Assembly (NCBI GenBank): GCA_036517175.1
Contig: DATDXQ010000028.1
Location: 2,113 to 66,112 of the forward strand
Source: Minisyncoccota bacterium
Lineage (GTDB): Bacteria > Patescibacteriota > Minisyncoccia > 2-02-FULL-40-12 > IGHO2-01-FULL-4-A
Length of the DNA: 64,000 nt
Direction of reading: 5' to 3'
A program made the position numbers and the translations under genes. The notes under the pieces are model-generated. The model was not told the DNA's origin. It saw only the letters and a list, made by a program, of their open reading frames with translations, and did no database searches. Every line of letters begins with the position of its first letter. The first letter of the stretch is position 1. Shown here in pieces: positions 4,495 to 55,276 of this stretch.

Positions 4495-5253
4495 TTAGTT
4501 TTCTTTTTTGAAATTAGCTTTTAAATAATCGTAAACAGAATTATCTTGTTTCTTTGTAAAGATGTATTCCAAATATTCAACATCCTCAGGCGTATCAATT
4601 TCGATCGTAAATGGGGTTTCAAAAGCCAGTGATTTCTGACCATAAAATAGGCCTGGGTTCTGTTTAATAAAATCAGGCCTGACAATATCAACATAGCCGT
4701 TTGGATGAAAAGCGGTAGGAAACGATTGCCTAGGCAAATTATAATACTCAGGCCTGGGATCATCAGGAAAAAAACCGGTCCAGTAGCCACCCTCTCCAAT
4801 TTTAAACATCTTCTGCGGCGGTTCTGCTAGCTTGTGTGCTGAACGAAGAGAGGTCGCCCTTGGGTCTGCTCCCAGCTTCTCAATAGCAGAATCCATCATA
4901 ATTGGATCACGGAGCGGCGTCGCCGGCCGTAGTTGAACTAACAGGTCAGGTAGATCGCCCTCATTTTCCTCAAGCCACTTTATTGCATGAGTAAAAACAT
5001 CCAGGTCAGTAGAATTATCCTGGGCAAACTCTTCGGGTCTGATGAATGGCACTTCTGCACCATATTTTTTCGCAATTTCAGAAATTTCAGGCGAGTTGGT
5101 TGATACTATATTCCTACTAATCCTTTTGCTGAGTTTTGATGCAGCTATTGAGTATGCGATAACGGGATACCCACCCAAAAACTTGATGTTCTTACCGGGA
5201 ACACCCTTTGATCCACCGCGAGCTTGGATTATAGAGTAGATTTTTTGACTCAT
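4495..5253 (-). CDS. CMP-nonulosonic acid synthetase (acylneuraminate cytidylyltransferase family).
   Basis: N-terminus IIQARGGSKGVPGKNI, typical of NeuA/PseF/LegF-type cytidylyltransferases. Confidence 0.8.
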   Translation of the reverse strand: MSQKIYSIIQARGGSKGVPGKNIKFLGGYPVIAYSIAASKLSKRISRNIVSTNSPEISEIAKKYGAEVPFIRPEEFAQDNSTDLDVFTHAIKWLEENEGDLPDLLVQLRPATPLRDPIMMDSAIEKLGADPRATSLRSAHKLAEPPQKMFKIGEGGYWTGFFPDDPRPEYYNLPRQSFPTAFHPNGYVDIVRPDFIKQNPGLFYGQKSLAFETPFTIEIDTPEDVEYLEYIFTKKQDNSVYDYLKANFKKEN

Positions 5254-5324
5254 GTTATTTAAGTAGACGATGATTCAAGGCGCTAAGTTCTTATCTGCTA
5301 AATTACAATAAAAATGGAAAAAAG

Positions 5325-5356
5325 GCAATAAAAAACCGCGCATGCGGTTTGTTAAA
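5325..5356 (-). terminator. Rho-independent terminator.
   Basis: Palindrome aaccgcgcatgcggtt flanked by an A-run and a T-run, downstream of the NeuB-like gene. Confidence 0.5.
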
Positions 5357-5359
5357 AGA

Positions 5360-6340
5360 TCATCCTTTACGTCTTAATTTTCTCATTACTTCAACTTCTT
5401 GGGGGTAAATTTGCACCACGCCATCGCCCTTTGCGATTTCAAATTCACGAATCCAACGACATAATGTTCTCAATTCTTCGGGCTCTATTGAACTAGCCTG
5501 ATCGCTGCCCCACATGGAACGCTCAAGGGTTATGTGTTTTTCTACAATACACGCCCCCATTGCAACAGCGGCAAAAGTCGGAACAATGCCACTATCATGA
5601 CTAGAGAAACCAGTGTCTACGGAAAGTTGATTTCGAAGATTTTCAATACATCTCAAGTTAATCATTTCCAAAATCTCTGATCCAGCATTAAGGGTTTGCG
5701 GATAAACACTCGTACAGTGTAAAACAACTAAACTATTTGTGCCGCCTAAAACACTTATGGCGTGCCTTATCATATTCATGTTACTCATGCCCGTAGAAAG
5801 AATTATAGGCCTTCCCTTACTCCGAATATACCTGAGAAGACCATCGTCAGTCAGACAAGGTGAGGCAATTTTATGACAAGGCGGATTGAACTCTTCCAAA
5901 AAATCAACGCTTTCTTCATCCCAAGGAGAGGCAAACCACAATATTCCTTTCTCGCGACAGTACAGATCTATTTGACTGTACTCTTCACGAGTAAACTCTA
6001 GAGCCCATTTAAGATCACCGTTGGTTGAATTCTCAAAACTTGAACTCTCTAGACGATTAACTGATTCATCGGAAAGCACACCTCTTTTTACGGCATTCAC
6101 AAGAACATCTTTGTTAACTTGTCGAGGTTTTGTCAGACTACCAGGATCATAATTTGCACTTGAAGAATAAACTATGGGTATCGTTCTCTTCTGAAATTTA
6201 ACGGCATCACAGCCGGCCGACACGGCCACGTCTATCAACTTTTTGGCTATTTCAACACTGCCATTATGATTAATGCCTATTTCAGCAACTATAAATACCT
6301 TCTCATTGTGACCCACACGTCTCTTATCGATTACAAACAC
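5360..6340 (-). CDS. NeuB-family nonulosonic acid (sialic/legionaminic/pseudaminic-type) synthase.
   Basis: FIVAEIGINHNGS...AVKFQKR N-terminal TIM-barrel signature of the NeuB/PseI/LegI family. Confidence 0.8.
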   Translation of the reverse strand: MFVIDKRRVGHNEKVFIVAEIGINHNGSVEIAKKLIDVAVSAGCDAVKFQKRTIPIVYSSSANYDPGSLTKPRQVNKDVLVNAVKRGVLSDESVNRLESSSFENSTNGDLKWALEFTREEYSQIDLYCREKGILWFASPWDEESVDFLEEFNPPCHKIASPCLTDDGLLRYIRSKGRPIILSTGMSNMNMIRHAISVLGGTNSLVVLHCTSVYPQTLNAGSEILEMINLRCIENLRNQLSVDTGFSSHDSGIVPTFAAVAMGACIVEKHITLERSMWGSDQASSIEPEELRTLCRWIREFEIAKGDGVVQIYPQEVEVMRKLRRKG

Positions 6341-23410: not shown

Positions 23411-25072
23411 TTATATTTCCGTCACATAATCTCCAGATACCCAACCAGTCGTGCCATTCGATAATTTAACCTTATACCAACCATTGCTTATTTCCCAAAA
23501 ATCAATCTGCTGATCTGGAGATAGTTGTCCCAATATACTGCTGGATGTTGTGGCAGCTTGTCTAACCCTCAAGAAACTTATATTACTGAGAACCTTAAGA
23601 GTTCCCCCCACCCTCATTTTGGCAAATTCTTCTCCTGATATAATTTTTACATCCGCCCAATTATAACCGGCAGCGTTAAATTCGGCCAATGTTCTTATCC
23701 ACCTCAACGTGCCATCTGAACCAACAACATATACCTTAGGATCATTAACTTTCCTGTAAAGCTGCGGCGAAGACATCTCTCCTGGCGCAAAGCTCATACT
23801 AGTGAATTCATTTACCGATATTATCTTAACGTCCGACCATTTATAATTAGAGGCATTAAATTCCTCAAGAGTCTTTACCCAATGAAGTCCGTCATCTTTT
23901 TGAACATAGACCTTTGGATCGCCATCTTTTCTGTACAATTTCATTATTCCTGTCGTGGCTTCTGATGTCGGTGTCGGCTCAGGAGTTGTTTGCGTGAAAA
24001 CCTCAGGGGTTGCTGTAGGTGTTGGCGTGGGGGATGCGGCGTCCGCAATACTTCCGCCTCCACCGCTTGGAGCAGTCTTTGGAGGAGTAATGTCTGTAGA
24101 AACCTGGGCGTCTGAGTCGGATGTTCGATCAGTGTAGGTTACACTTGTAGTGTCGTATCCGGTCAAAACAAACTTAGCTGAGGTTCCCGTATTTGCAAGC
24201 GGCACAGAACAATACCAATTACCGTCTGAATTATTCGTACACGTTGTTCCAAAGCTGTCTCCGGCCGTTACAGTTCCTGTTGTAAATTTGTTGTTAGTAA
24301 AATCTCCACCAGATTCATAAACTCTAACTTTATGTCCAAAAGACAAACCACTTTCATCAACATCACTATCATCTCCAGTTCCGAAATCAATAGATTGAGA
24401 AGCAGTGCCGGATACTGTAAGAGTTCCGCTTGAAGTTGCCTTAACATAACCATCAGCCTCAGCGGTAACAGTGCCTCCACTAGTTGAACCGGCAATATAC
24501 TTCTTACCACCTCTATAAGACTCTGACGCAGTTGTTCCATTGTAAGATGCCGAAGCGCTAGAACCATCAAGAGTAATGGCTGTACCAAGCTCATCATCTA
24601 CACCGTTTATTACAATATTGAAATCCAAACTTGCATAAGTTGTAAATGGACTGGATGTGGAAGCGCCTGGAAAAGAAGCGTTAGTCCACTCTCTTACAAC
24701 CCAACCGTCAATAGATGCAGAAGCTCTTAATGTTTCACTTTCTCCTATGGTACAGCTAGCAGCTGTCATTTCCGCAGATGCTGAAGCCACCTTTATTATA
24801 CCATCACGCGCGTTGGTGCTTTCTGAAGCTGTGTTATCGTTAACTTGACCAAAACTGGAAGCGCCATCGCAGTACCACCTTATAGTCAATGTTCCGCCTT
24901 CGGACAAAAGATCGTTCAGTTCAGTGTCTATTCTAAACCAGACAAACTCTCCATCATCAGCGGCATGCGCTTTGTCTGAAAACAACAAAAAAGTCGCAAG
25001 TGTCGCGACAAAAACTGCAAATACAATAAAAACTCGACCTAGAGTTAAACTAGCATAAGATGAATTATTCAT
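23411..25072 (-). CDS. Secreted Thr/Ser/Gly-rich surface protein with two tandem roughly 45-aa repeats and a C-terminal bacterial SH3 domain.
   Basis: Signal peptide ...SDKAHA|ADDG. Low-complexity T/S/G body. Duplicated LYRKxxDPKVYVxxxDGxxxWIxTLxEFNAxxYxWxDVKIIS. C-terminal NGWYKVKLSNGTTGWVSGDYV (SH3b). Confidence 0.6.
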   Translation of the reverse strand: MNNSSYASLTLGRVFIVFAVFVATLATFLLFSDKAHAADDGEFVWFRIDTELNDLLSEGGTLTIRWYCDGASSFGQVNDNTASESTNARDGIIKVASASAEMTAASCTIGESETLRASASIDGWVVREWTNASFPGASTSSPFTTYASLDFNIVINGVDDELGTAITLDGSSASASYNGTTASESYRGGKKYIAGSTSGGTVTAEADGYVKATSSGTLTVSGTASQSIDFGTGDDSDVDESGLSFGHKVRVYESGGDFTNNKFTTGTVTAGDSFGTTCTNNSDGNWYCSVPLANTGTSAKFVLTGYDTTSVTYTDRTSDSDAQVSTDITPPKTAPSGGGGSIADAASPTPTPTATPEVFTQTTPEPTPTSEATTGIMKLYRKDGDPKVYVQKDDGLHWVKTLEEFNASNYKWSDVKIISVNEFTSMSFAPGEMSSPQLYRKVNDPKVYVVGSDGTLRWIRTLAEFNAAGYNWADVKIISGEEFAKMRVGGTLKVLSNISFLRVRQAATTSSSILGQLSPDQQIDFWEISNGWYKVKLSNGTTGWVSGDYVTEI

Positions 25073-51854: not shown

Positions 51855-52318
51855 CTATAAATTTTTTTCTAGAAATAACCTAGCTTTCCTAAATGCTTCA
51901 CCTCGATGAGATATTTTATTCTCATCCTCTGTCGTCATTTCAGCCAAAACTAAATTGGTACCTTCAGGAACAAATAGCCCACTGTAGGGCATCCCTGGTT
52001 GAAACTTTGCTCTAGGAGCTTCCAGTAATTGTCCATAGACTTTACCTGAAAAGAAATACTCATCGCCACTTGGTGCAACAACCACAAAGACCTTTCAGCA
52101 ACGCCTTCATTGGATTCACTTTCCTTGAATAGCATGCGATACCTATTTGCCCGATCGTGTAATAAGATCCCTTCAAATTGAGTAAGGGCAAATCTTCCAA
52201 GTTTCTTCAGAATCACACAAACTTCTGGATTATTCCCGTTTACTTCAAGTTCTTTTTCAATTTCGCCAATAAATACTTGAATTGTGACTTCAACTGTAAT
52301 TTTAGACAACATATCCAT
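51855..52318 (-). pseudogene. Candidate frameshifted gene: two overlapping ORFs in different frames.
   Basis: The 122-aa ORF (52318 to 51950) and the 76-aa ORF (52085 to 51855) overlap by 135 nt. Together they would read as one roughly 150-aa protein. Confidence 0.35.
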
Positions 52319-52449
52319 TGTCTAACTACTATTTTAAAGAATAAACCAACAATACCATAGAAATATTGTATTGTAAAGTACATTGCTGAGCTGGGACTTA
52401 GTTGGAAATCGATATTATTGAATATCCAAGAGATTTACGCTTTCGCAAA

Positions 52450-52485
52450 TTAAAAAGCCGAGCATAACTCGGTCCTACATTTTAT
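52450..52485 (-). terminator. Rho-independent terminator.
   Basis: gccgagc-ataa-ctcggtc hairpin. Minus-strand T-run with a conserved TTTTTAATTTGCGAA tail. Confidence 0.5.
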
Positions 52486-52487
52486 GA

Positions 52488-52700
52488 TTAGGTTTTACTT
52501 TTAAAATGGTCGAACTTATACCAAAGATCATCAAAATACGCCTTACAAGATGTGCAATCAGCAAAATGCAGAAGATCTTCATATGTTAGTCCGCTAACAC
52601 ACATCTTATGAAATTGCCCCACAGTGAAGTGGGTTCCTAGAGGAATTTCTAATCCAGTTGGTTTTGGTTTCTTAAATCTCTTTAATAACCATACTAGCAT
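52488..52700 (-). CDS. Small Cys/His-containing hypothetical protein.
   Basis: 70 aa. AGGAG SD. TTGACA-N17-TATTGT promoter at 52732-52760. Confidence 0.45.
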   Translation of the reverse strand: MLVWLLKRFKKPKPTGLEIPLGTHFTVGQFHKMCVSGLTYEDLLHFADCTSCKAYFDDLWYKFDHFKSKT

Positions 52701-52731
52701 TTTAGTCTCCTGTTATTAAGGAATAGGAAAA

Positions 52732-52760
52732 ACAATACTTCTTCTTGTTAGCATTGTCAA
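52732..52760 (-). promoter_or_regulatory. Sigma70-like promoter TTGACA-N17-TATTGT.
   Basis: Exact -35 hexamer and 17-nt spacer. Lies 30 nt upstream of the AGGAG SD of the 52700 gene. Confidence 0.5.
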
Positions 52761-52793
52761 TCTATTGGGGAAGGTTACTTAAGGGAGTAAGAA

Positions 52794-53870
52794 TTACTTT
52801 TTATTGTTCTGCAAAGGGTGGGATTTATTCTTCTCTACCCTTTCTATCATAAATTTTACAGCCTCGTTCGTATTGATAAATTGTAGCTTTATATCTGGAA
52901 GGTTGTTGTGAAATACCCTAAATATTTCATCCGCAAAAGCTTGTCCAATCATAGGAACCTTATCAAAATCAAATACGACAGATTTAAATTTATCTAAACC
53001 AGACAATACTCTACGTGCTTGGGAGCGAGAAACAAATACACCACCTATTGTATACAGCTTTATCTTAACTTCAGTTTTATCAAATCCTTGATAACCGTCC
53101 TCATTTTCTCCAGTATATTTTCTAAATATATCGTTTAGGTGCCTATCTGAATCTATCGAAATAGAAAAACTAACTTTAGTACCCTTTCTTATAGCTTTTG
53201 GTTTTTGTAAGAAAACATCATTAATTCTGTTGTTTACTATAACTAGTCTGTATCCAAAACTATCTAAATTAAACAGGTCGCCAGCCCTTGAAGTAAAGAA
53301 AATACCCTCACCAGAATGAGATTTAGGTTGTGTGGTTGTTTTTCCTTTCAATAAATCCTGAATGGCCTCGAGCTCCGATTTAAGAGTTCTTTTGACCATT
53401 ATGTTTTTATATACTCCAATTCCAGAATCTATTACATCAAAGAAAAGCTTCTTATTTTCAATTCTGACCTCGACCGTAATATTCTTTGATTTTGAATGCT
53501 CAATAGCATTGTTGAGCATCTCAGAAAAAGCATAAGTAAAAATACTCCTAACATTTTCCTTGAGGGTCAAGATAAGGGGAAACTTATTCTCTAGTTCATT
53601 CAAAACCTTGTGCTCTTCCAGCCCCTTATTCTTTAACGTTTTTTTTATTTTGTTAGGAAAAAGTTCTAAGTGGTTCGCAGCGTATTTAGGATTTAGATAT
53701 GAAGCCTTACTAGTTGAGCCGGTCTTTACTATTTTTCTCTCATTGACCAACTGTTTTAATAAAAAGCTTATATATTGCCTAGAAACGCCAAATATAGAGA
53801 CTAGATCCCTAGTTTTTAATTGTTTTTTTTGCTCTAAAATATTTAGTATTGTTTCTTTAGACAACTTCAT
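52794..53870 (-). CDS. Single-polypeptide wHTH + GHKL (HATPase_c) ATPase + STAS-like (DUF4325) protein.
   Basis: N-terminal HTH (LKTRDLVSIFGVSRQYISFLL). N-box NNAIEHS and G-box DSGIGV. C-terminal VVFDFDKVPMIGQAFADEIFRV, typical of DUF4325. Tandem TTGACA boxes with TATACT 7 nt from the ATG suggest a leaderless start. Confidence 0.6.
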   Translation of the reverse strand: MKLSKETILNILEQKKQLKTRDLVSIFGVSRQYISFLLKQLVNERKIVKTGSTSKASYLNPKYAANHLELFPNKIKKTLKNKGLEEHKVLNELENKFPLILTLKENVRSIFTYAFSEMLNNAIEHSKSKNITVEVRIENKKLFFDVIDSGIGVYKNIMVKRTLKSELEAIQDLLKGKTTTQPKSHSGEGIFFTSRAGDLFNLDSFGYRLVIVNNRINDVFLQKPKAIRKGTKVSFSISIDSDRHLNDIFRKYTGENEDGYQGFDKTEVKIKLYTIGGVFVSRSQARRVLSGLDKFKSVVFDFDKVPMIGQAFADEIFRVFHNNLPDIKLQFINTNEAVKFMIERVEKNKSHPLQNNKK

Positions 53871-54133
53871 TGACTTAAGTATATCAGTTGTAAAGCGGTT
53901 GTCAAGTAGTCTGGGGACGGTTGTCAACTTGGTTGTAAAGTTAGTGGCCGAGCTAGGTCTTCGTTGCTTCGCTCCTCCGAAGCTTTAGCAAAGGAGGGGG
54001 CATTTATTGATACCGAATATCCGGGAGATTTACTATTTTGCTACAAATTAAAAAGCGCCCTTCGATAAACTCAGAGCACTTCTTAATCTCAGTTTACACT
54101 GAGCTTGTCGAAGTGTTGCGGGGACAATCAATC

Positions 54134-54219
54134 GTTGGAACTACTTCTAAGCGATTAGTTGAGAAAGTTTTTAGGTATTACTTAAAAATAAAACCTATCG
54201 ATTAAGATAGGTGTTGGAA
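54134..54219 (-). repeat. Conserved 3'-end element copy A (GATTAGTTGA box plus terminator hairpin), flanked by GTTGGAA.
   Basis: Homologous to 54741-54840 and 58916-59030. Hairpin cctatc/gatagg. Confidence 0.55.
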
Positions 54220-54222
54220 ATA

Positions 54223-54633
54223 TCATCTACGGCCAGACCAGTTTTTACCACAGTCATCGCACCAATAGGCAGTAAAATCATATTCAGATTTTGATTTTAG
54301 GTTTGGGTGTTGGCATCTTTTTTGCAGTTCTATCAATTCATTTTCTACTACAGTAAGTTGGGCTTGAACTCCCTTTTTTCGAGACTCAATTTTTTTTCGG
54401 AGCTCAATTACATTATTCTGGGTAGCCTGAACAGATTCCTTAAATTCTTGACATCGGCAAGCGTTACAGCTTGTCCCAACTTTAATATTTTCTGACAATC
54501 CAATGTGATTATGATAATTGCGTGGGTGGCCACATTCACAGATTAATTCTGGATTGTAACGGCCAAAGACAGAGTGTGATACTTCGCTCACGCTCAACTC
54601 TTTGTTGTAAATTATCTGCCTAGAGAATATCAC
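54223..54633 (-). CDS. Zn-finger / coiled-coil small protein.
   Basis: 136 aa with no internal Met. CECGH...CNACRC and C-terminal CQHP...CDDCG. Central coiled coil. Non-ATG start; the exact start is uncertain. Confidence 0.45.
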   Translation of the reverse strand: MIFSRQIIYNKELSVSEVSHSVFGRYNPELICECGHPRNYHNHIGLSENIKVGTSCNACRCQEFKESVQATQNNVIELRKKIESRKKGVQAQLTVVENELIELQKRCQHPNLKSKSEYDFTAYWCDDCGKNWSGRR

Positions 54634-54740
54634 CCAAAAACCTTTTAATCAATATCCCTGCTGTCCCTCGATTTCCTCGGGATAAATCATTCCTTCGATA
54701 GTTCGGCAGGCACTTCGGCCGTGAGCCCAGCACCGAATGG

Positions 54741-54840
54741 CTCACTACTTGATCAGGGCAAGACTGCAAGCGATTAGTTGAAAGGGTGTTTAAATATTAC
54801 TTAGAAAATAAAAAAGAGGGATAAATCCCTCATCTTGGAA
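54741..54840 (-). repeat. Conserved 3'-end element copy B.
   Basis: GATTAGTTGA box at 54772-54781 plus hairpin gaggga/tccctc overlapping the RidA stop codon. Confidence 0.55.
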
Positions 54841-55276
54841 TAGCAGCAATTCCTCTGATTTCTACCATCGTATCTTCCAAGGGGTACTCCCACGGCACTT
54901 CTGATACCCAAACCTGACACCTGGCAGGCATGTTTCCTTTTTCTCTTGTAATACCGTATTGAGCAAAAAATTCACAGTAGGCAGAATTATAATCTTCACG
55001 GGATTTCTTTCGGTCTTTACAATCTTTCAAAAATACATCCATTGCTACAAACGAGCTGGCATCACCGCCTGCCTCCTCAACGATAGCAAGCATATTTTTC
55101 AATACTTGAGCGGTCTGTGGCCCATAACCACCTTCAACAACTGGCTCGCCATCACGGCTTTTATCATTTCCTGTTTGCCCAGCAAGAAAAAGAATTTTGT
55201 GGTTCATCGGGTCTACTAATACACCCTGACTGTATGCACCTGGAGTGGGAGTCTTATCAGTAAAAATATTCTGCAT
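54830..55276 (-). CDS. RidA/YjgF/Endoribonuclease L-PSP family protein.
   Basis: GAYSQGV..., GPQTAQVLKNM, VDVFL and the C-terminal PARCQVWVSEV...VEIRGIAA pattern. AAGGAG SD at the ATG at 55276. Confidence 0.65.
   Translation of the reverse strand: MQNIFTDKTPTPGAYSQGVLVDPMNHKILFLAGQTGNDKSRDGEPVVEGGYGPQTAQVLKNMLAIVEEAGGDASSFVAMDVFLKDCKDRKKSREDYNSAYCEFFAQYGITREKGNMPARCQVWVSEVPWEYPLEDTMVEIRGIAAIPR

What the first reader, a model, noticed from the sequence alone, without database searches (positions are those of the whole stretch)
52794..53927. Single-polypeptide wHTH, GHKL ATPase/kinase and STAS-like (DUF4325) protein with a leaderless-type promoter
Partner-switching modules normally split the GHKL kinase and STAS antagonist into separate proteins. 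Here they are fused behind a DNA-binding HTH. The protein sits at the start of the small-gene accessory region. It is a candidate regulator, or sensor plus effector, of that region. Two TTGACA boxes are present, and TATACT lies 7 nt from the ATG.
Basis: partly seen in the sequence, partly recalled or inferred. Interest (0 to 1): 0.5.

Follow-up and report, generated by a model that had tools for sequence, protein, structure and literature searches.

The report
Self-regulating HTH–kinase–STAS regulator gene
This gene from a candidate-phylum (Patescibacteria) bacterium encodes one protein that joins a DNA-binding domain to an anti-sigma-type kinase and its usual partner domain; it belongs to a very large uncharacterised family, and nearly every member we examined carries the same array of repeated DNA motifs over its own promoter, so it most likely controls its own expression.

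Summary
The real CDS is 52794..53870 on the minus strand (358 aa). The TTG at 53927 lies inside the promoter region and is not the start.

The protein has three domains:
- a winged HTH
- a SpoIIAB/RsbW-type GHKL ATPase/kinase
- a STAS-fold DUF4325 domain

The protein belongs to a very large family with this fixed architecture. It occurs in Patescibacteria, Actinomycetota, Proteobacteria and prophages. I found no experimental literature on it.

The gene stands alone. No neighbour is conserved across 73 loci. No partner phosphatase or sigma factor is linked, and there is no clear defence-island association.

They are two of four helically phased TTKACAAY repeats. Similar arrays cover the promoter of almost every orthologue examined: a mean of 2.95 copies per 120 nt, against 0.07 at control promoters. 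In the six Actinomycetota loci the motif differs from locus to locus, and an inverted copy over the start codon changes with it.

Best reading: an autoregulated one-component regulator whose kinase–STAS pair acts as a built-in nucleotide switch. The switch mechanism is inferred.

A leaderless layout is plausible, but it appears to be common across this genome. Control of the neighbouring small genes is not supported.

The parts
52794..53870 (-). CDS of the three-domain protein (358 aa plus stop). The true start is the ATG at 53870-53868.
   Evidence: An identical 358-aa protein is on record. Orthologues align from this Met.
53673..53870 (-). Winged helix-turn-helix domain (about aa 1-66). The recognition helix begins at S30-R31-Q32.
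53112..53663 (-). GHKL ATPase/kinase domain of the SpoIIAB/RsbW type (about aa 70-253). It carries an N box (E117, N120, N121, H125), a G1 box (D148, G150, G152) and a lid/G2 segment (K175-G176..T179-T180-x-P182..H185-x-G187-x-G189).
52821..53087 (-). STAS-fold DUF4325 domain (about aa 262-350). Signature motifs are V-S281-R-S283-Q-A-R-R and G309-Q-A-F-A-D-E-I-F-R-V-F.
53886..53939 (-). Array of four direct repeats of TTKACAAYY: 53939-53931, 53927-53919, 53905-53897 and 53894-53886. Start-to-start spacings are 12, 22 and 11 nt. This is the candidate operator array.
   Evidence: These are 4 of only 9 matches to the pattern in the 64-kb window. The same kind of array is present upstream of nearly all orthologues examined.
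53878..53905 (-). Sigma-70-type promoter: -35 TTGACA (which is repeat copy 3), a 16-nt spacer with TG, and -10 TATACT. The -10 ends 7 nt before the ATG.
   Evidence: (11 of 12 matches). In 32 of 70 orthologous loci the best -10 ends 6-10 nt before the ATG.
53860..53867 (-). Possible inverted half-copy of the repeat (AAGTTGTC) within codons 2-4.
   Evidence: Read from the sequence. It resembles the inverted copy AGTTGTCAAC that lies downstream of the -10 in loci L082-L094, and the inverted copies over the start codon in L139-L144. On its own it is weak evidence.
54193..54212 (-). Terminator-like hairpin that closes the upstream gene and insulates this transcription unit.
52488..52700 (-). Downstream 70-aa ORF of unknown function. 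It may be co-transcribed, and it has its own promoter-like site (52760-52732) whose -35 reads TTGACAATG.
   Evidence: It has no Pfam hit. It is conserved only in contigs of the same species.
52458..52472 (-). Terminator-like hairpin at the end of the unit.
53933..54056 (-). Upstream arm of a diverged direct repeat. Its partner lies at 52371-52458. Together they flank the roughly 1.6-kb low-GC unit.
   Evidence: Repeat families D3, D4 and D15 are collinear with offsets of 1562-1598 nt. The alignment is and the GC profile.

Best explanation
The gene encodes a stand-alone, autoregulated one-component transcription factor. It belongs to a very large uncharacterised family.

Proposed mechanism:
1. 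The N-terminal winged HTH binds an array of TTKACAAY repeats spaced about one helical turn apart. The repeats overlie the -35, flank the -10 and reach the start codon of the protein's own gene. Several subunits therefore sit on one face of the DNA and repress, or at least tune, the gene's own transcription.
2. The SpoIIAB/RsbW-type GHKL domain is predicted to bind ATP. Together with the tethered STAS-fold DUF4325 domain it forms a built-in version of the kinase/antagonist pair of partner-switching systems.
3. The nucleotide state (ATP or ADP) sets the contact between the kinase lid and the STAS domain. This may also involve phosphorylation of the invariant Ser281 or Ser283, or a ligand bound at the STAS helix N-caps.
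4. That contact changes oligomerisation or HTH geometry, and with it DNA binding.

Shown here: the three domains, intact ATP-binding motifs, absence of any conserved partner gene, and the family-wide promoter-proximal repeat arrays.

Inferred: that the HTH binds these repeats, that binding represses, and how the kinase-STAS pair switches it. Other targets elsewhere in the genome are possible and could not be examined.
For: Domains:
- Pfam DUF4325 and HATPase_c both score above their cut-offs.
- The AF2 model has pLDDT 85.
- The N-box, G1 and lid/G2 residues are invariant in 64 sequences.

Fixed architecture: 649 clusters at 50% identity have E <= 1e-30, and nearly all of the 150 listed are about 340-360 aa and align over most of the query. 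Members occur in Patescibacteria, Actinomycetota, Gemmatimonadota and Proteobacteria.

Solitary gene: no neighbour family is shared by more than 4 of 73 loci, and no Pfam family occurs in more than 2 of 148 flanking proteins.

Repeat arrays:
- The 74 orthologous loci carry a mean of 2.95 forward copies of TT[GT]ACA[AT] in the 120 nt upstream; 58 of them have 3 or more.
- The background is 0.046 per 120 nt. At 263 control promoters in the same loci the mean is 0.068 and none has 2 or more copies.
- Spacings between copies cluster at 11-12, 20-22 and 32-33 nt.
- No other cluster was found in about 350 kb of flanking DNA or in the 64-kb window.
- In the Actinomycetota loci the tandem motif differs from locus to locus (TTTGGCG, TTTACC, TTTACG, TTTGTC). 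An inverted copy over the ATG and the first four codons changes with it.
- A Photobacterium homologue at 36% identity still has GTTGACAA repeats plus an inverted copy.
- R31 and Q32 at the start of the recognition helix are invariant in A1.
Against: No binding, transcription or phosphorylation data exist for any family member that I could find.

The repeat core TTGACA is also the -35 consensus, and TACAAT inside the motif resembles a -10. The arrays are therefore entangled with the promoter itself.

The canonical STAS phospho-acceptor position is Gly309-Gln310 in 129-130 of 133 representatives. A classical kinase-substrate relation between the two domains is not predicted.

A stand-alone 91-aa DUF4325 protein with no kinase domain of its own keeps the same two motifs. 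Those motifs may therefore serve something other than kinase contact.

A purely autoregulatory circuit has no evident output. The real target, whether a regulon or a protein substrate, remains unseen.

Inter-domain geometry in the model is only moderately confident (pTM 0.66), and I could not inspect the coordinates.
Confidence: 0.55

Rival explanations
1. A DNA-tethered anti-sigma factor or protein kinase. The SpoIIAB/RsbW-like domain sequesters or phosphorylates a target in trans, such as a sigma factor or another protein. The STAS domain competes with that target. The HTH serves only for autoregulation or localisation.
For: The closest structural relatives are all anti-sigma Ser kinases, and the STAS fold matches anti-sigma antagonists. 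Rv1364c, a fused kinase-STAS protein, interacts with SigF in vitro (PMC7693655). The repeat motif coincides with the -35 hexamer that sigma region 4 recognises (the link to sigma is inference).
Against: No sigma factor or PP2C phosphatase is conserved nearby in 73 loci. The canonical phospho-serine is absent. SpoIIAB residues that contact sigma could not be assessed.
Confidence: 0.15
2. A single-chain toxin-antitoxin-like or anti-phage module. An AbiEi-like wHTH autorepressor is fused to a kinase effector that the STAS-like domain keeps inactive until a trigger, such as phage infection, releases it.
For: - The gene sits in a low-GC 2.2-kb island flanked by direct repeats.
- Its genomic context varies from locus to locus.
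- 43 homologues lie on viral or prophage contigs among terminase, portal and integrase genes.
- Tight autoregulation through repeated operators is typical of TA loci (established knowledge).
- Homologues carry faint AbiEi_4 hits.
- Stand-alone DUF4325 genes are reported as coupled to PIN.4 (VapC-like) genes (PMC5499597), and one lies next to a HigBA-like pair.
Against: - No PADLOC model matches beyond the HTH, with a best E of 0.001.
- Only a few of 148 flanking proteins hit defence models.
- The protein is strongly conserved (57-65% identity across Patescibacteria classes), unlike typical fast-evolving defence genes.
- No matches were found in 72,556 plasmids or 50,697 cultured phages.
Confidence: 0.15
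3. One reading: it is the dedicated regulator of the neighbouring small accessory genes in this window.
For: The promoter-like sites of the two next genes downstream have -35 elements that extend into the repeat motif: TTGACAATG at 52760-52752 and TTTACAAT at 52377-52370. All three genes lie in or at the edge of the same low-GC island.
Against: Each of these is a single copy that is expected anyway at a -35. No repeat cluster exists outside the gene's own promoter. The small genes are absent from every locus outside this species. The second site is part of a duplicated copy of the gene's own 5' region.
Confidence: 0.1
4. The repeats are only stacked sigma-70 promoter elements (tandem -35 and -10 boxes) and are not protein operators.
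For: The core is TTGACA or TTTACA, and TACAAT lies inside the motif. One copy always sits where a -35 is expected.
Against: - None of 263 control promoters in the same loci has 2 or more copies.
- Conservation extends beyond the hexamer, with G at position -1 and A-A-T at positions +7 to +9.
- Copies are in helical phase.
- In Actinomycetota the motif differs between loci and an inverted copy inside the coding sequence changes with it.
Confidence: 0.05

Closest known systems
Rv1364c of Mycobacterium tuberculosis (PAS sensor, PP2C phosphatase, GHKL kinase and anti-sigma antagonist in one polypeptide)
   Different: Rv1364c has PAS and PP2C domains and no DNA-binding domain. The protein here has an N-terminal wHTH and no phosphatase, either fused or encoded nearby. 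It also lacks the canonical phospho-serine.
SpoIIAB/SpoIIAA and RsbW/RsbV partner-switching pairs
   Different: In those systems the two parts are separate proteins that act on a sigma factor and are reset by a PP2C phosphatase. Here they are fused behind an HTH, no sigma factor or phosphatase is linked, and Gly-Gln replaces the Asp-Ser of the phospho-site. Sequence similarity is remote (E of about 0.005 for a profile against SpoIIAB). HATPase_c_2 scores below its Pfam cut-off for this protein.
SiaB/SiaC of Pseudomonas aeruginosa (a kinase with a STAS-like partner that does not control a sigma factor)
   Different: SiaB and SiaC are separate proteins. Their output is a diguanylate cyclase, and no DNA-binding domain is involved.
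Autorepressors with an N-terminal wHTH and repeated operators (AbiEi antitoxin; OmpR/PhoB-type binding to direct repeats with an 11-bp period)
   Same: A wHTH is combined with multiple promoter-proximal sites. Faint AbiEi_4 hits occur in homologues. The roughly 11-bp phasing of direct repeats recalls pho boxes (from memory).
   Different: The effector or receiver domains are unrelated. AbiEi uses inverted repeats and has a separate toxin gene. PhoB is activated by a separate histidine kinase.
Pfam DUF4325 (PF14213) proteins annotated 'DUF4325 / STAS-like domain-containing protein'
   Same: This protein is a bona fide member (52.5 bits). An identical sequence is already deposited under that name.
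   Different: The name carries no function. I found no publication that describes the three-domain architecture, its operator arrays or any experiment on it.

Membership tests
Pfam DUF4325 (PF14213, STAS-like) | HMM score above the gathering cut-off | tested here: met
   52.5 bits against a cut-off of 23, E = 3.9e-14, covering profile positions 1-64 of 64.
STAS / anti-sigma-factor antagonist (SpoIIAA, RsbV) | STAS fold | tested here: met
STAS / anti-sigma-factor antagonist (SpoIIAA, RsbV) | Phosphorylatable Ser/Thr at the N-cap of the helix that follows the central strand (the DSSG motif; Ser58 in SpoIIAA) | tested here: not met
   By secondary-structure register the equivalent residues are G309-Q310-A311. 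Among 133 representatives G is present in 130 and Q in 129. The register is inferred, because hhalign against SpoIIAA was uninformative. The invariant S281 and S283 sit at the N-cap of the preceding helix.
GHKL ATPases (Pfam HATPase_c) | HMM score above cut-off, and N-box Asn, G1 DxGxG and G2 glycines present | tested here: met
   28.8 bits against a cut-off of 26.4. E117, N120, N121, D148, G150, G152, G187 and G189 are invariant in 64 sequences.
SpoIIAB/RsbW anti-sigma Ser/Thr kinases (Pfam HATPase_c_2) | Sequence-profile membership | tested here: inconclusive
   HATPase_c_2 scores 24.1 bits, below its cut-off of 27.4, for this protein. Many close homologues do carry precomputed PF13581 hits.
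SpoIIAB/RsbW anti-sigma Ser/Thr kinases (Pfam HATPase_c_2) | Closest structural relatives are anti-sigma kinases rather than histidine kinases, MutL, MORC or topoisomerases | tested here: met
SpoIIAB/RsbW anti-sigma Ser/Thr kinases (Pfam HATPase_c_2) | Binds and inhibits a cognate sigma factor | not testable with these tools
   No sigma factor gene is conserved near the gene. Protein interaction needs an experiment.
Canonical partner-switching system | A linked PP2C phosphatase (SpoIIE/RsbU type) and a sigma factor or other output gene in the locus | tested here: not met
   No neighbour family is shared by more than 4 of 73 loci. No PP2C or sigma family appears among the 25 families most often matched by the 148 flanking proteins, and none of those 25 is matched by more than 2.
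Winged HTH transcription regulators (MarR/ArsR-like) | wHTH fold with a recognition helix | tested here: met
Winged HTH transcription regulators (MarR/ArsR-like) | Sequence-specific DNA binding to an operator | not testable with these tools
   Only comparative evidence is available: family-wide repeat arrays at the gene's own promoter.
Known anti-phage defence systems (PADLOC-DB) | Match to a defence-protein model | tested here: not met
   Only weak matches confined to the HTH region were found: PsyrT at E = 0.001, PDC-S05 and Csa3.
Leaderless mRNA gene | A -10 box about 6-8 nt upstream of the start codon, with no Shine-Dalgarno sequence | tested here: met
   TATACT ends 7 nt before the ATG and there is no SD. 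The same layout (6-8 nt) occurs in 15 of 70 orthologous loci, and 9-11 nt in another 20. It also occurs at many other genes in the window. The transcription start itself was not mapped.

The most novel reading that the evidence does not exclude
A complete partner-switching circuit has collapsed into one DNA-binding polypeptide. Its operator mimics the promoter elements themselves: TTGACA as the -35 and TACAAT as the -10. The regulator would then compete directly with the housekeeping sigma factor at its own promoter and perhaps at others. The ATP/ADP state of the anti-sigma-type kinase, read out through the tethered non-phosphorylatable STAS domain, would set occupancy. This would make it a minimal sensor of energy charge or stress, which would be especially relevant in Patescibacteria, which are thought to have few regulators (general knowledge, not checked here).
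Probability: 0.2. Interest if true: 0.75.

Novelty: new variant of a known kind. Interest (0 to 1): 0.5.

Why it matters
Partner-switching modules (a GHKL kinase with a STAS antagonist) are a classic bacterial signalling device. They are almost always studied as separate proteins that control sigma factors.

This gene represents a very large family with no experimental description that I could find. It occurs in Patescibacteria, Actinomycetota, Proteobacteria and prophages. In it, the kinase and the STAS domain are fused to a DNA-binding domain, so the module would act directly on DNA.

The conserved repeat arrays give an immediately testable binding site. Orthologues in cultivable Photobacterium, Vibrio and Shewanella provide experimental systems.

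If the model holds, it defines a new class of one-component regulator. It would also give one of the few conserved regulators of candidate-phyla-radiation bacteria both a function and a known DNA motif.

Tried and rejected
- **Conserved gene neighbourhood.** All-against-all BLASTP of flanking ORFs in 15 and then 73 loci found no partner. Pfam and PADLOC scans of 148 flanking proteins found no recurrent family, and only sporadic defence hits: one Lamassu pair and two AAA_21 proteins.
- **Search for a regulon.** No second cluster of the repeat exists in the 64-kb window or in about 350 kb of orthologous flanks. Whole genomes were not available.
- **Scan of IMG/VR for the tandem motif GTTKACAATNNNTTKACAAT.** It gave 120 or more hits. 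None lies near a family gene, and the downstream ORFs are unrelated. I judged these to be chance or unrelated promoters.
- **Sequence searches of the PDB.** Only remote hits were found, with E >= 1e-3.
- **tblastn against PLSDB plasmids and INPHARED phages.** No match.
- **Rfam scan of 52000-55000.** Nothing found; the best hit was a miRNA model at E = 0.79.
- **Literature searches.** Searches for DUF4325, PF14213, STAS-like with HATPase, and fused partner-switch with HTH returned only incidental mentions.
Full report
**1. Observation**

The window has an ORF at 52794..53927 on the minus strand. Its TTG start is an over-extension. A protein identical to the product that starts at the ATG at 53870 (358 aa) is on record on 8 contigs as 'DUF4325 domain-containing protein [Candidatus Paceibacterota bacterium]'. 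Orthologues align from that Met. The 57 nt between the TTG and the ATG are promoter and operator DNA.

On the minus strand, upstream of the ATG, the sequence reads:

`CTTTACAACC-AAG-TTGACAACC-GTCCCCAGACTAC-TTGACAACC-GC-TTTACAACT-GA-TATACT-TAAGTCA-ATG`

The consensus scan gives TTGACA, a 16-nt spacer with TG, then TATACT. This is an 11/12 match and the best site in the region. The -10 ends 7 nt before the ATG, and there is no Shine-Dalgarno sequence.

**2. Domains**

| Pfam family | Score | Cut-off | Source |
|---|---|---|---|
| DUF4325 | 52.5 bits | 23 | |
| HATPase_c | 28.8 bits | 26.4 | |
| HATPase_c_2 | 24.1 bits | 27.4 | |
| HTH families | E = 0.04-0.2 | below cut-off | |

An AlphaFold2 model built on 64 homologues has mean pLDDT 85. 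The only low-confidence stretches are the ATP lid (aa 178-187), the linker before the last domain (aa 259-264) and the C-terminal tail.

All three assignments therefore hold: wHTH (about aa 1-66), an anti-sigma-type GHKL domain (about aa 70-253) and a STAS fold (about aa 262-350).

The ATP-binding residues are invariant across the 64 aligned sequences. These are the N box (E117, N120, N121), the G1 box (D148, G150, G152) and the lid/G2 segment (K175, G176, T179, T180, P182, H185, G187, G189).

**3. Not a textbook kinase-substrate pair**

In SpoIIAA and RsbV the phospho-serine caps the helix that follows the central strand (established knowledge). By secondary-structure register, the equivalent position here is V-P-M-I-G309-Q310-A-F-A-D-E. 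Among 133 diverse representatives, G is present in 130 and Q in 129.

The most conserved feature of the domain is instead V-S281-R282-S283-Q/E-A-K/R-R, at the N-cap of the preceding helix. S281 is present in 133 of 133, R282 in 132 and S283 in 131.

A stand-alone 91-aa DUF4325 protein on locus L138, next to a HigBA-like pair, keeps both motifs. They therefore belong to the domain itself and are not a product of the fusion.

**4. Family and distribution**

The first search was saturated. 7,974 of 8,000 scored candidates were significant, and the top 120 all had E < 1e-129 and lengths of about 345-390 aa.

In the library clustered at 50% identity, 2,236 representatives have E <= 1e-3 and 649 have E <= 1e-30. 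Nearly all of the 150 listed are 330-360 aa and align over most of the query.

Members come from these groups:
- Saccharibacteria, Nomurabacteria, Falkowbacteria, Peribacteria, Moranbacteria and other Patescibacteria, at 53-65% identity
- Margulisbacteria
- Actinomycetota and Gemmatimonadota
- cultured Proteobacteria, including Photobacterium swingsii, P. leiognathi, Vibrio artabrorum, Shewanella, Beggiatoa and Sulfurimonas

A further 43 homologues at 35-44% identity lie on IMG/VR viral contigs. There they sit among terminase, portal, tail and integrase genes. None was found in PLSDB plasmids or INPHARED phages.

Literature searches returned only incidental mentions of DUF4325.

**5. Genomic context**

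The gene is solitary.
- Across 73 loci with three genes examined on each side, no neighbour family is shared by more than 4 loci.
- Among 148 flanking proteins no Pfam family occurs more than twice. The contexts include S15-PNPase, DnaN, TopA, MurJ and glutamine synthetase, as well as occasional defence genes.
- PADLOC hits among the neighbours are sporadic: one Lamassu pair and two AAA_21-type ATPases.
- The protein itself matches no defence model beyond its HTH.
- No PP2C phosphatase or sigma factor is linked.

**6. The repeat array (main new result)**

The two TTGACA boxes are two of four copies of TTKACAAYY, at 53939-31, 53927-19, 53905-897 and 53894-886. These are 4 of only 9 matches in the 64-kb window.

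The same kind of array lies upstream of almost every orthologue.

| Measure | Family gene | Control |
|---|---|---|
| Mean forward copies of TT[GT]ACA[AT] per 120 nt upstream | 2.95 (74 loci) | 0.046 in flanking DNA; 0.068 at 263 neighbouring-gene promoters in the same loci |
| Loci or promoters with 2 or more copies | 62 of 74 | 0 of 263 |
| Loci with 3 or more copies | 58 of 74 | 0 of 263 |

Further properties:
- The extended consensus is (G/C)TT(G/T)ACAAT(T).
- Start-to-start spacings cluster at 11-12 nt (74 cases), 20-22 nt (62) and 32-33 nt (8). These are whole helical turns.
- No other cluster of three or more copies occurs anywhere in the held flanks.
- More distant members keep the core. 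One example is GTTGACAA twice plus an inverted AGTTGTCAAT upstream of the Photobacterium homologue at 36% identity.

In six Actinomycetota loci the tandem motif has a period of 8 nt and differs from locus to locus: TTTGGCG, TTTACC, TTTACG, TTGACAT, TTTGTC and TTGACG. In each locus an inverted copy overlaps the ATG and the first four codons and carries the same locus-specific bases. This matched variation within each locus, together with the control promoters, argues against a generic promoter feature. It points to a protein-binding operator.

R31 and Q32 at the start of the recognition helix are invariant in A1. This fits a conserved core motif.

In the window, codons 2-4 (AAGTTGTC, 53867-53860) may form such an inverted half-site. 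That is weak evidence on its own.

**7. Promoter and leaderless question**

One repeat always sits at the -35. The motif also contains TACAAT, which resembles a -10.

In 32 of 70 loci the best -10 ends 6-10 nt from the ATG (6-8 nt in 15 loci, 9-11 nt in 20). A leaderless or near-leaderless mRNA is therefore common in the family.

In this window only 8 of 41 long ORFs have an SD-like motif. Several have TATAAT 4-8 nt before the start codon. The layout looks like a genome-wide habit rather than a special property of this gene. No transcript data were available.

**8. Local structure in the window**

- GC content falls to 0.32-0.37 between about 52.2 and 54.4 kb, against 0.40-0.45 on either side.
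- Terminator-like hairpins bracket the unit, at 54212-54193 and 52472-52458.
- A diverged direct repeat of about 190 nt also brackets it. The arms lie at 53850-54056 and 52290-52458. Each arm includes one TTTACAA copy and the first codons ATG..TTGTCTAAA.
- Just beyond the unit lies the C-terminal third of a Ham1/ITPase gene (51855-52085; Pfam positions 120-183 of 186).

This suggests that the cassette (operator, gene and a 70-aa ORF) arrived or was duplicated by recombination. It is consistent with the variable contexts seen elsewhere.

**9. Mechanism**

The best-supported reading is an autoregulated one-component regulator.
1. Several wHTH domains bind the phased repeats over the -35, the -10 and the start codon, on one face of the DNA.
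2. The GHKL-STAS pair is an intramolecular or inter-subunit nucleotide-dependent switch. It is modelled on the SpoIIAB(ATP/ADP)-SpoIIAA interaction.
3. The switch works without the canonical phospho-serine. It may use S281 or S283, or a ligand bound at the two helix N-caps.

The domain identities, the intact ATP site, the solitary context and the operator-like arrays are shown. DNA binding, repression and the switching step are inferred.

Four rivals remain:
- a DNA-tethered anti-sigma factor or kinase that acts in trans
- a fused toxin-antitoxin-like or defence module
- a local regulator of the small neighbouring genes, supported only by single motif-like -35 boxes at 52760-52752 and 52377-52370
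- mere stacked promoter elements, contradicted

**10. Comparison and novelty**

The nearest characterised system is Rv1364c. [quoted passage not shown] The kinase-STAS fusion is therefore not unprecedented.

Three things differ here: the N-terminal DNA-binding domain, the absence of any phosphatase, and the non-canonical STAS site.

The sequence family is already catalogued under the DUF4325 / 'STAS-like domain-containing protein' names. I found no description of the architecture, its operators or its function. I rate it a new variant of a known kind, of moderate interest. It is directly testable because a binding motif and cultivable hosts are now in hand.

Noticed in passing
window 51855-52085 (-): A 76-aa ORF matches only the C-terminal third of the Ham1/ITPase family (Pfam positions 120-183 of 186, E = 1.3e-12). 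It looks like a gene remnant at the edge of the low-GC island. A 122-aa ORF (51950-52318) overlaps it in another frame and may be spurious.
   Followed up: partly
window 53850-54056 and 52290-52458: Diverged direct repeats of about 190 nt (about 70-80% identity, three collinear blocks) bracket the 1.6-kb unit made of the DUF4325 gene and the 70-aa ORF. Each arm includes one TTTACAA motif copy and the first codons ATG..TTGTCTAAA. This suggests insertion or duplication of the cassette.
   Followed up: partly
window 52200-54400: A low-GC island (0.32-0.37, against 0.40-0.45 in the flanks) coincides with the gene, its upstream intergenic region and the 70-aa ORF.
   Followed up: partly
whole window (e.g. 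starts at 25072, 45718, 4466, 15792 on the minus strand): Few long ORFs have a Shine-Dalgarno-like motif (8 of 41). Several have TATAAT 4-8 nt upstream of the start codon. Leaderless mRNAs may be common in this Patescibacteria genome.
   Followed up: partly
window 54223-54633 (-): The upstream neighbour is a 136-aa protein with several CxxC/CxC cysteine pairs and a coiled-coil-like middle section. It has no Pfam hit. It is present in some contigs of this species and replaced by a different 122-aa gene in another (L002).
   Followed up: no
L138 5935-6210 (+), with 5245-5919: A stand-alone 91-aa DUF4325 protein is 58% identical to the C-terminal domain and keeps the same SRSQARR and GQAFADEIFRVF motifs. 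It lies next to a HigB/HigA-like pair on a prophage-like contig.
   Followed up: no
L139-L144, first 15 nt of the CDS: In Actinomycetota homologues the start codon and the first four codons (which encode a basic tail such as MSKGK or MPKRQ) are an inverted copy of the locus-specific upstream tandem repeat. The operator sequence therefore constrains the N-terminal residues.
   Followed up: partly
L005 7975-9858 (-): A 627-aa protein next to one orthologue has an N-box-like motif (DVIQNSWDA). It may be a MORC/paraMORC-type GHKL ATPase, and a small partner ORF lies beside it. It is not conserved in other loci.
   Followed up: no
window 53966-54010 (-): A GC-rich inverted repeat (CCTCC...GGAGG) lies in the otherwise AT-rich intergenic region upstream of the repeat array. 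It is absent from the downstream copy of the flanking repeat. It has no Rfam match.
   Followed up: no
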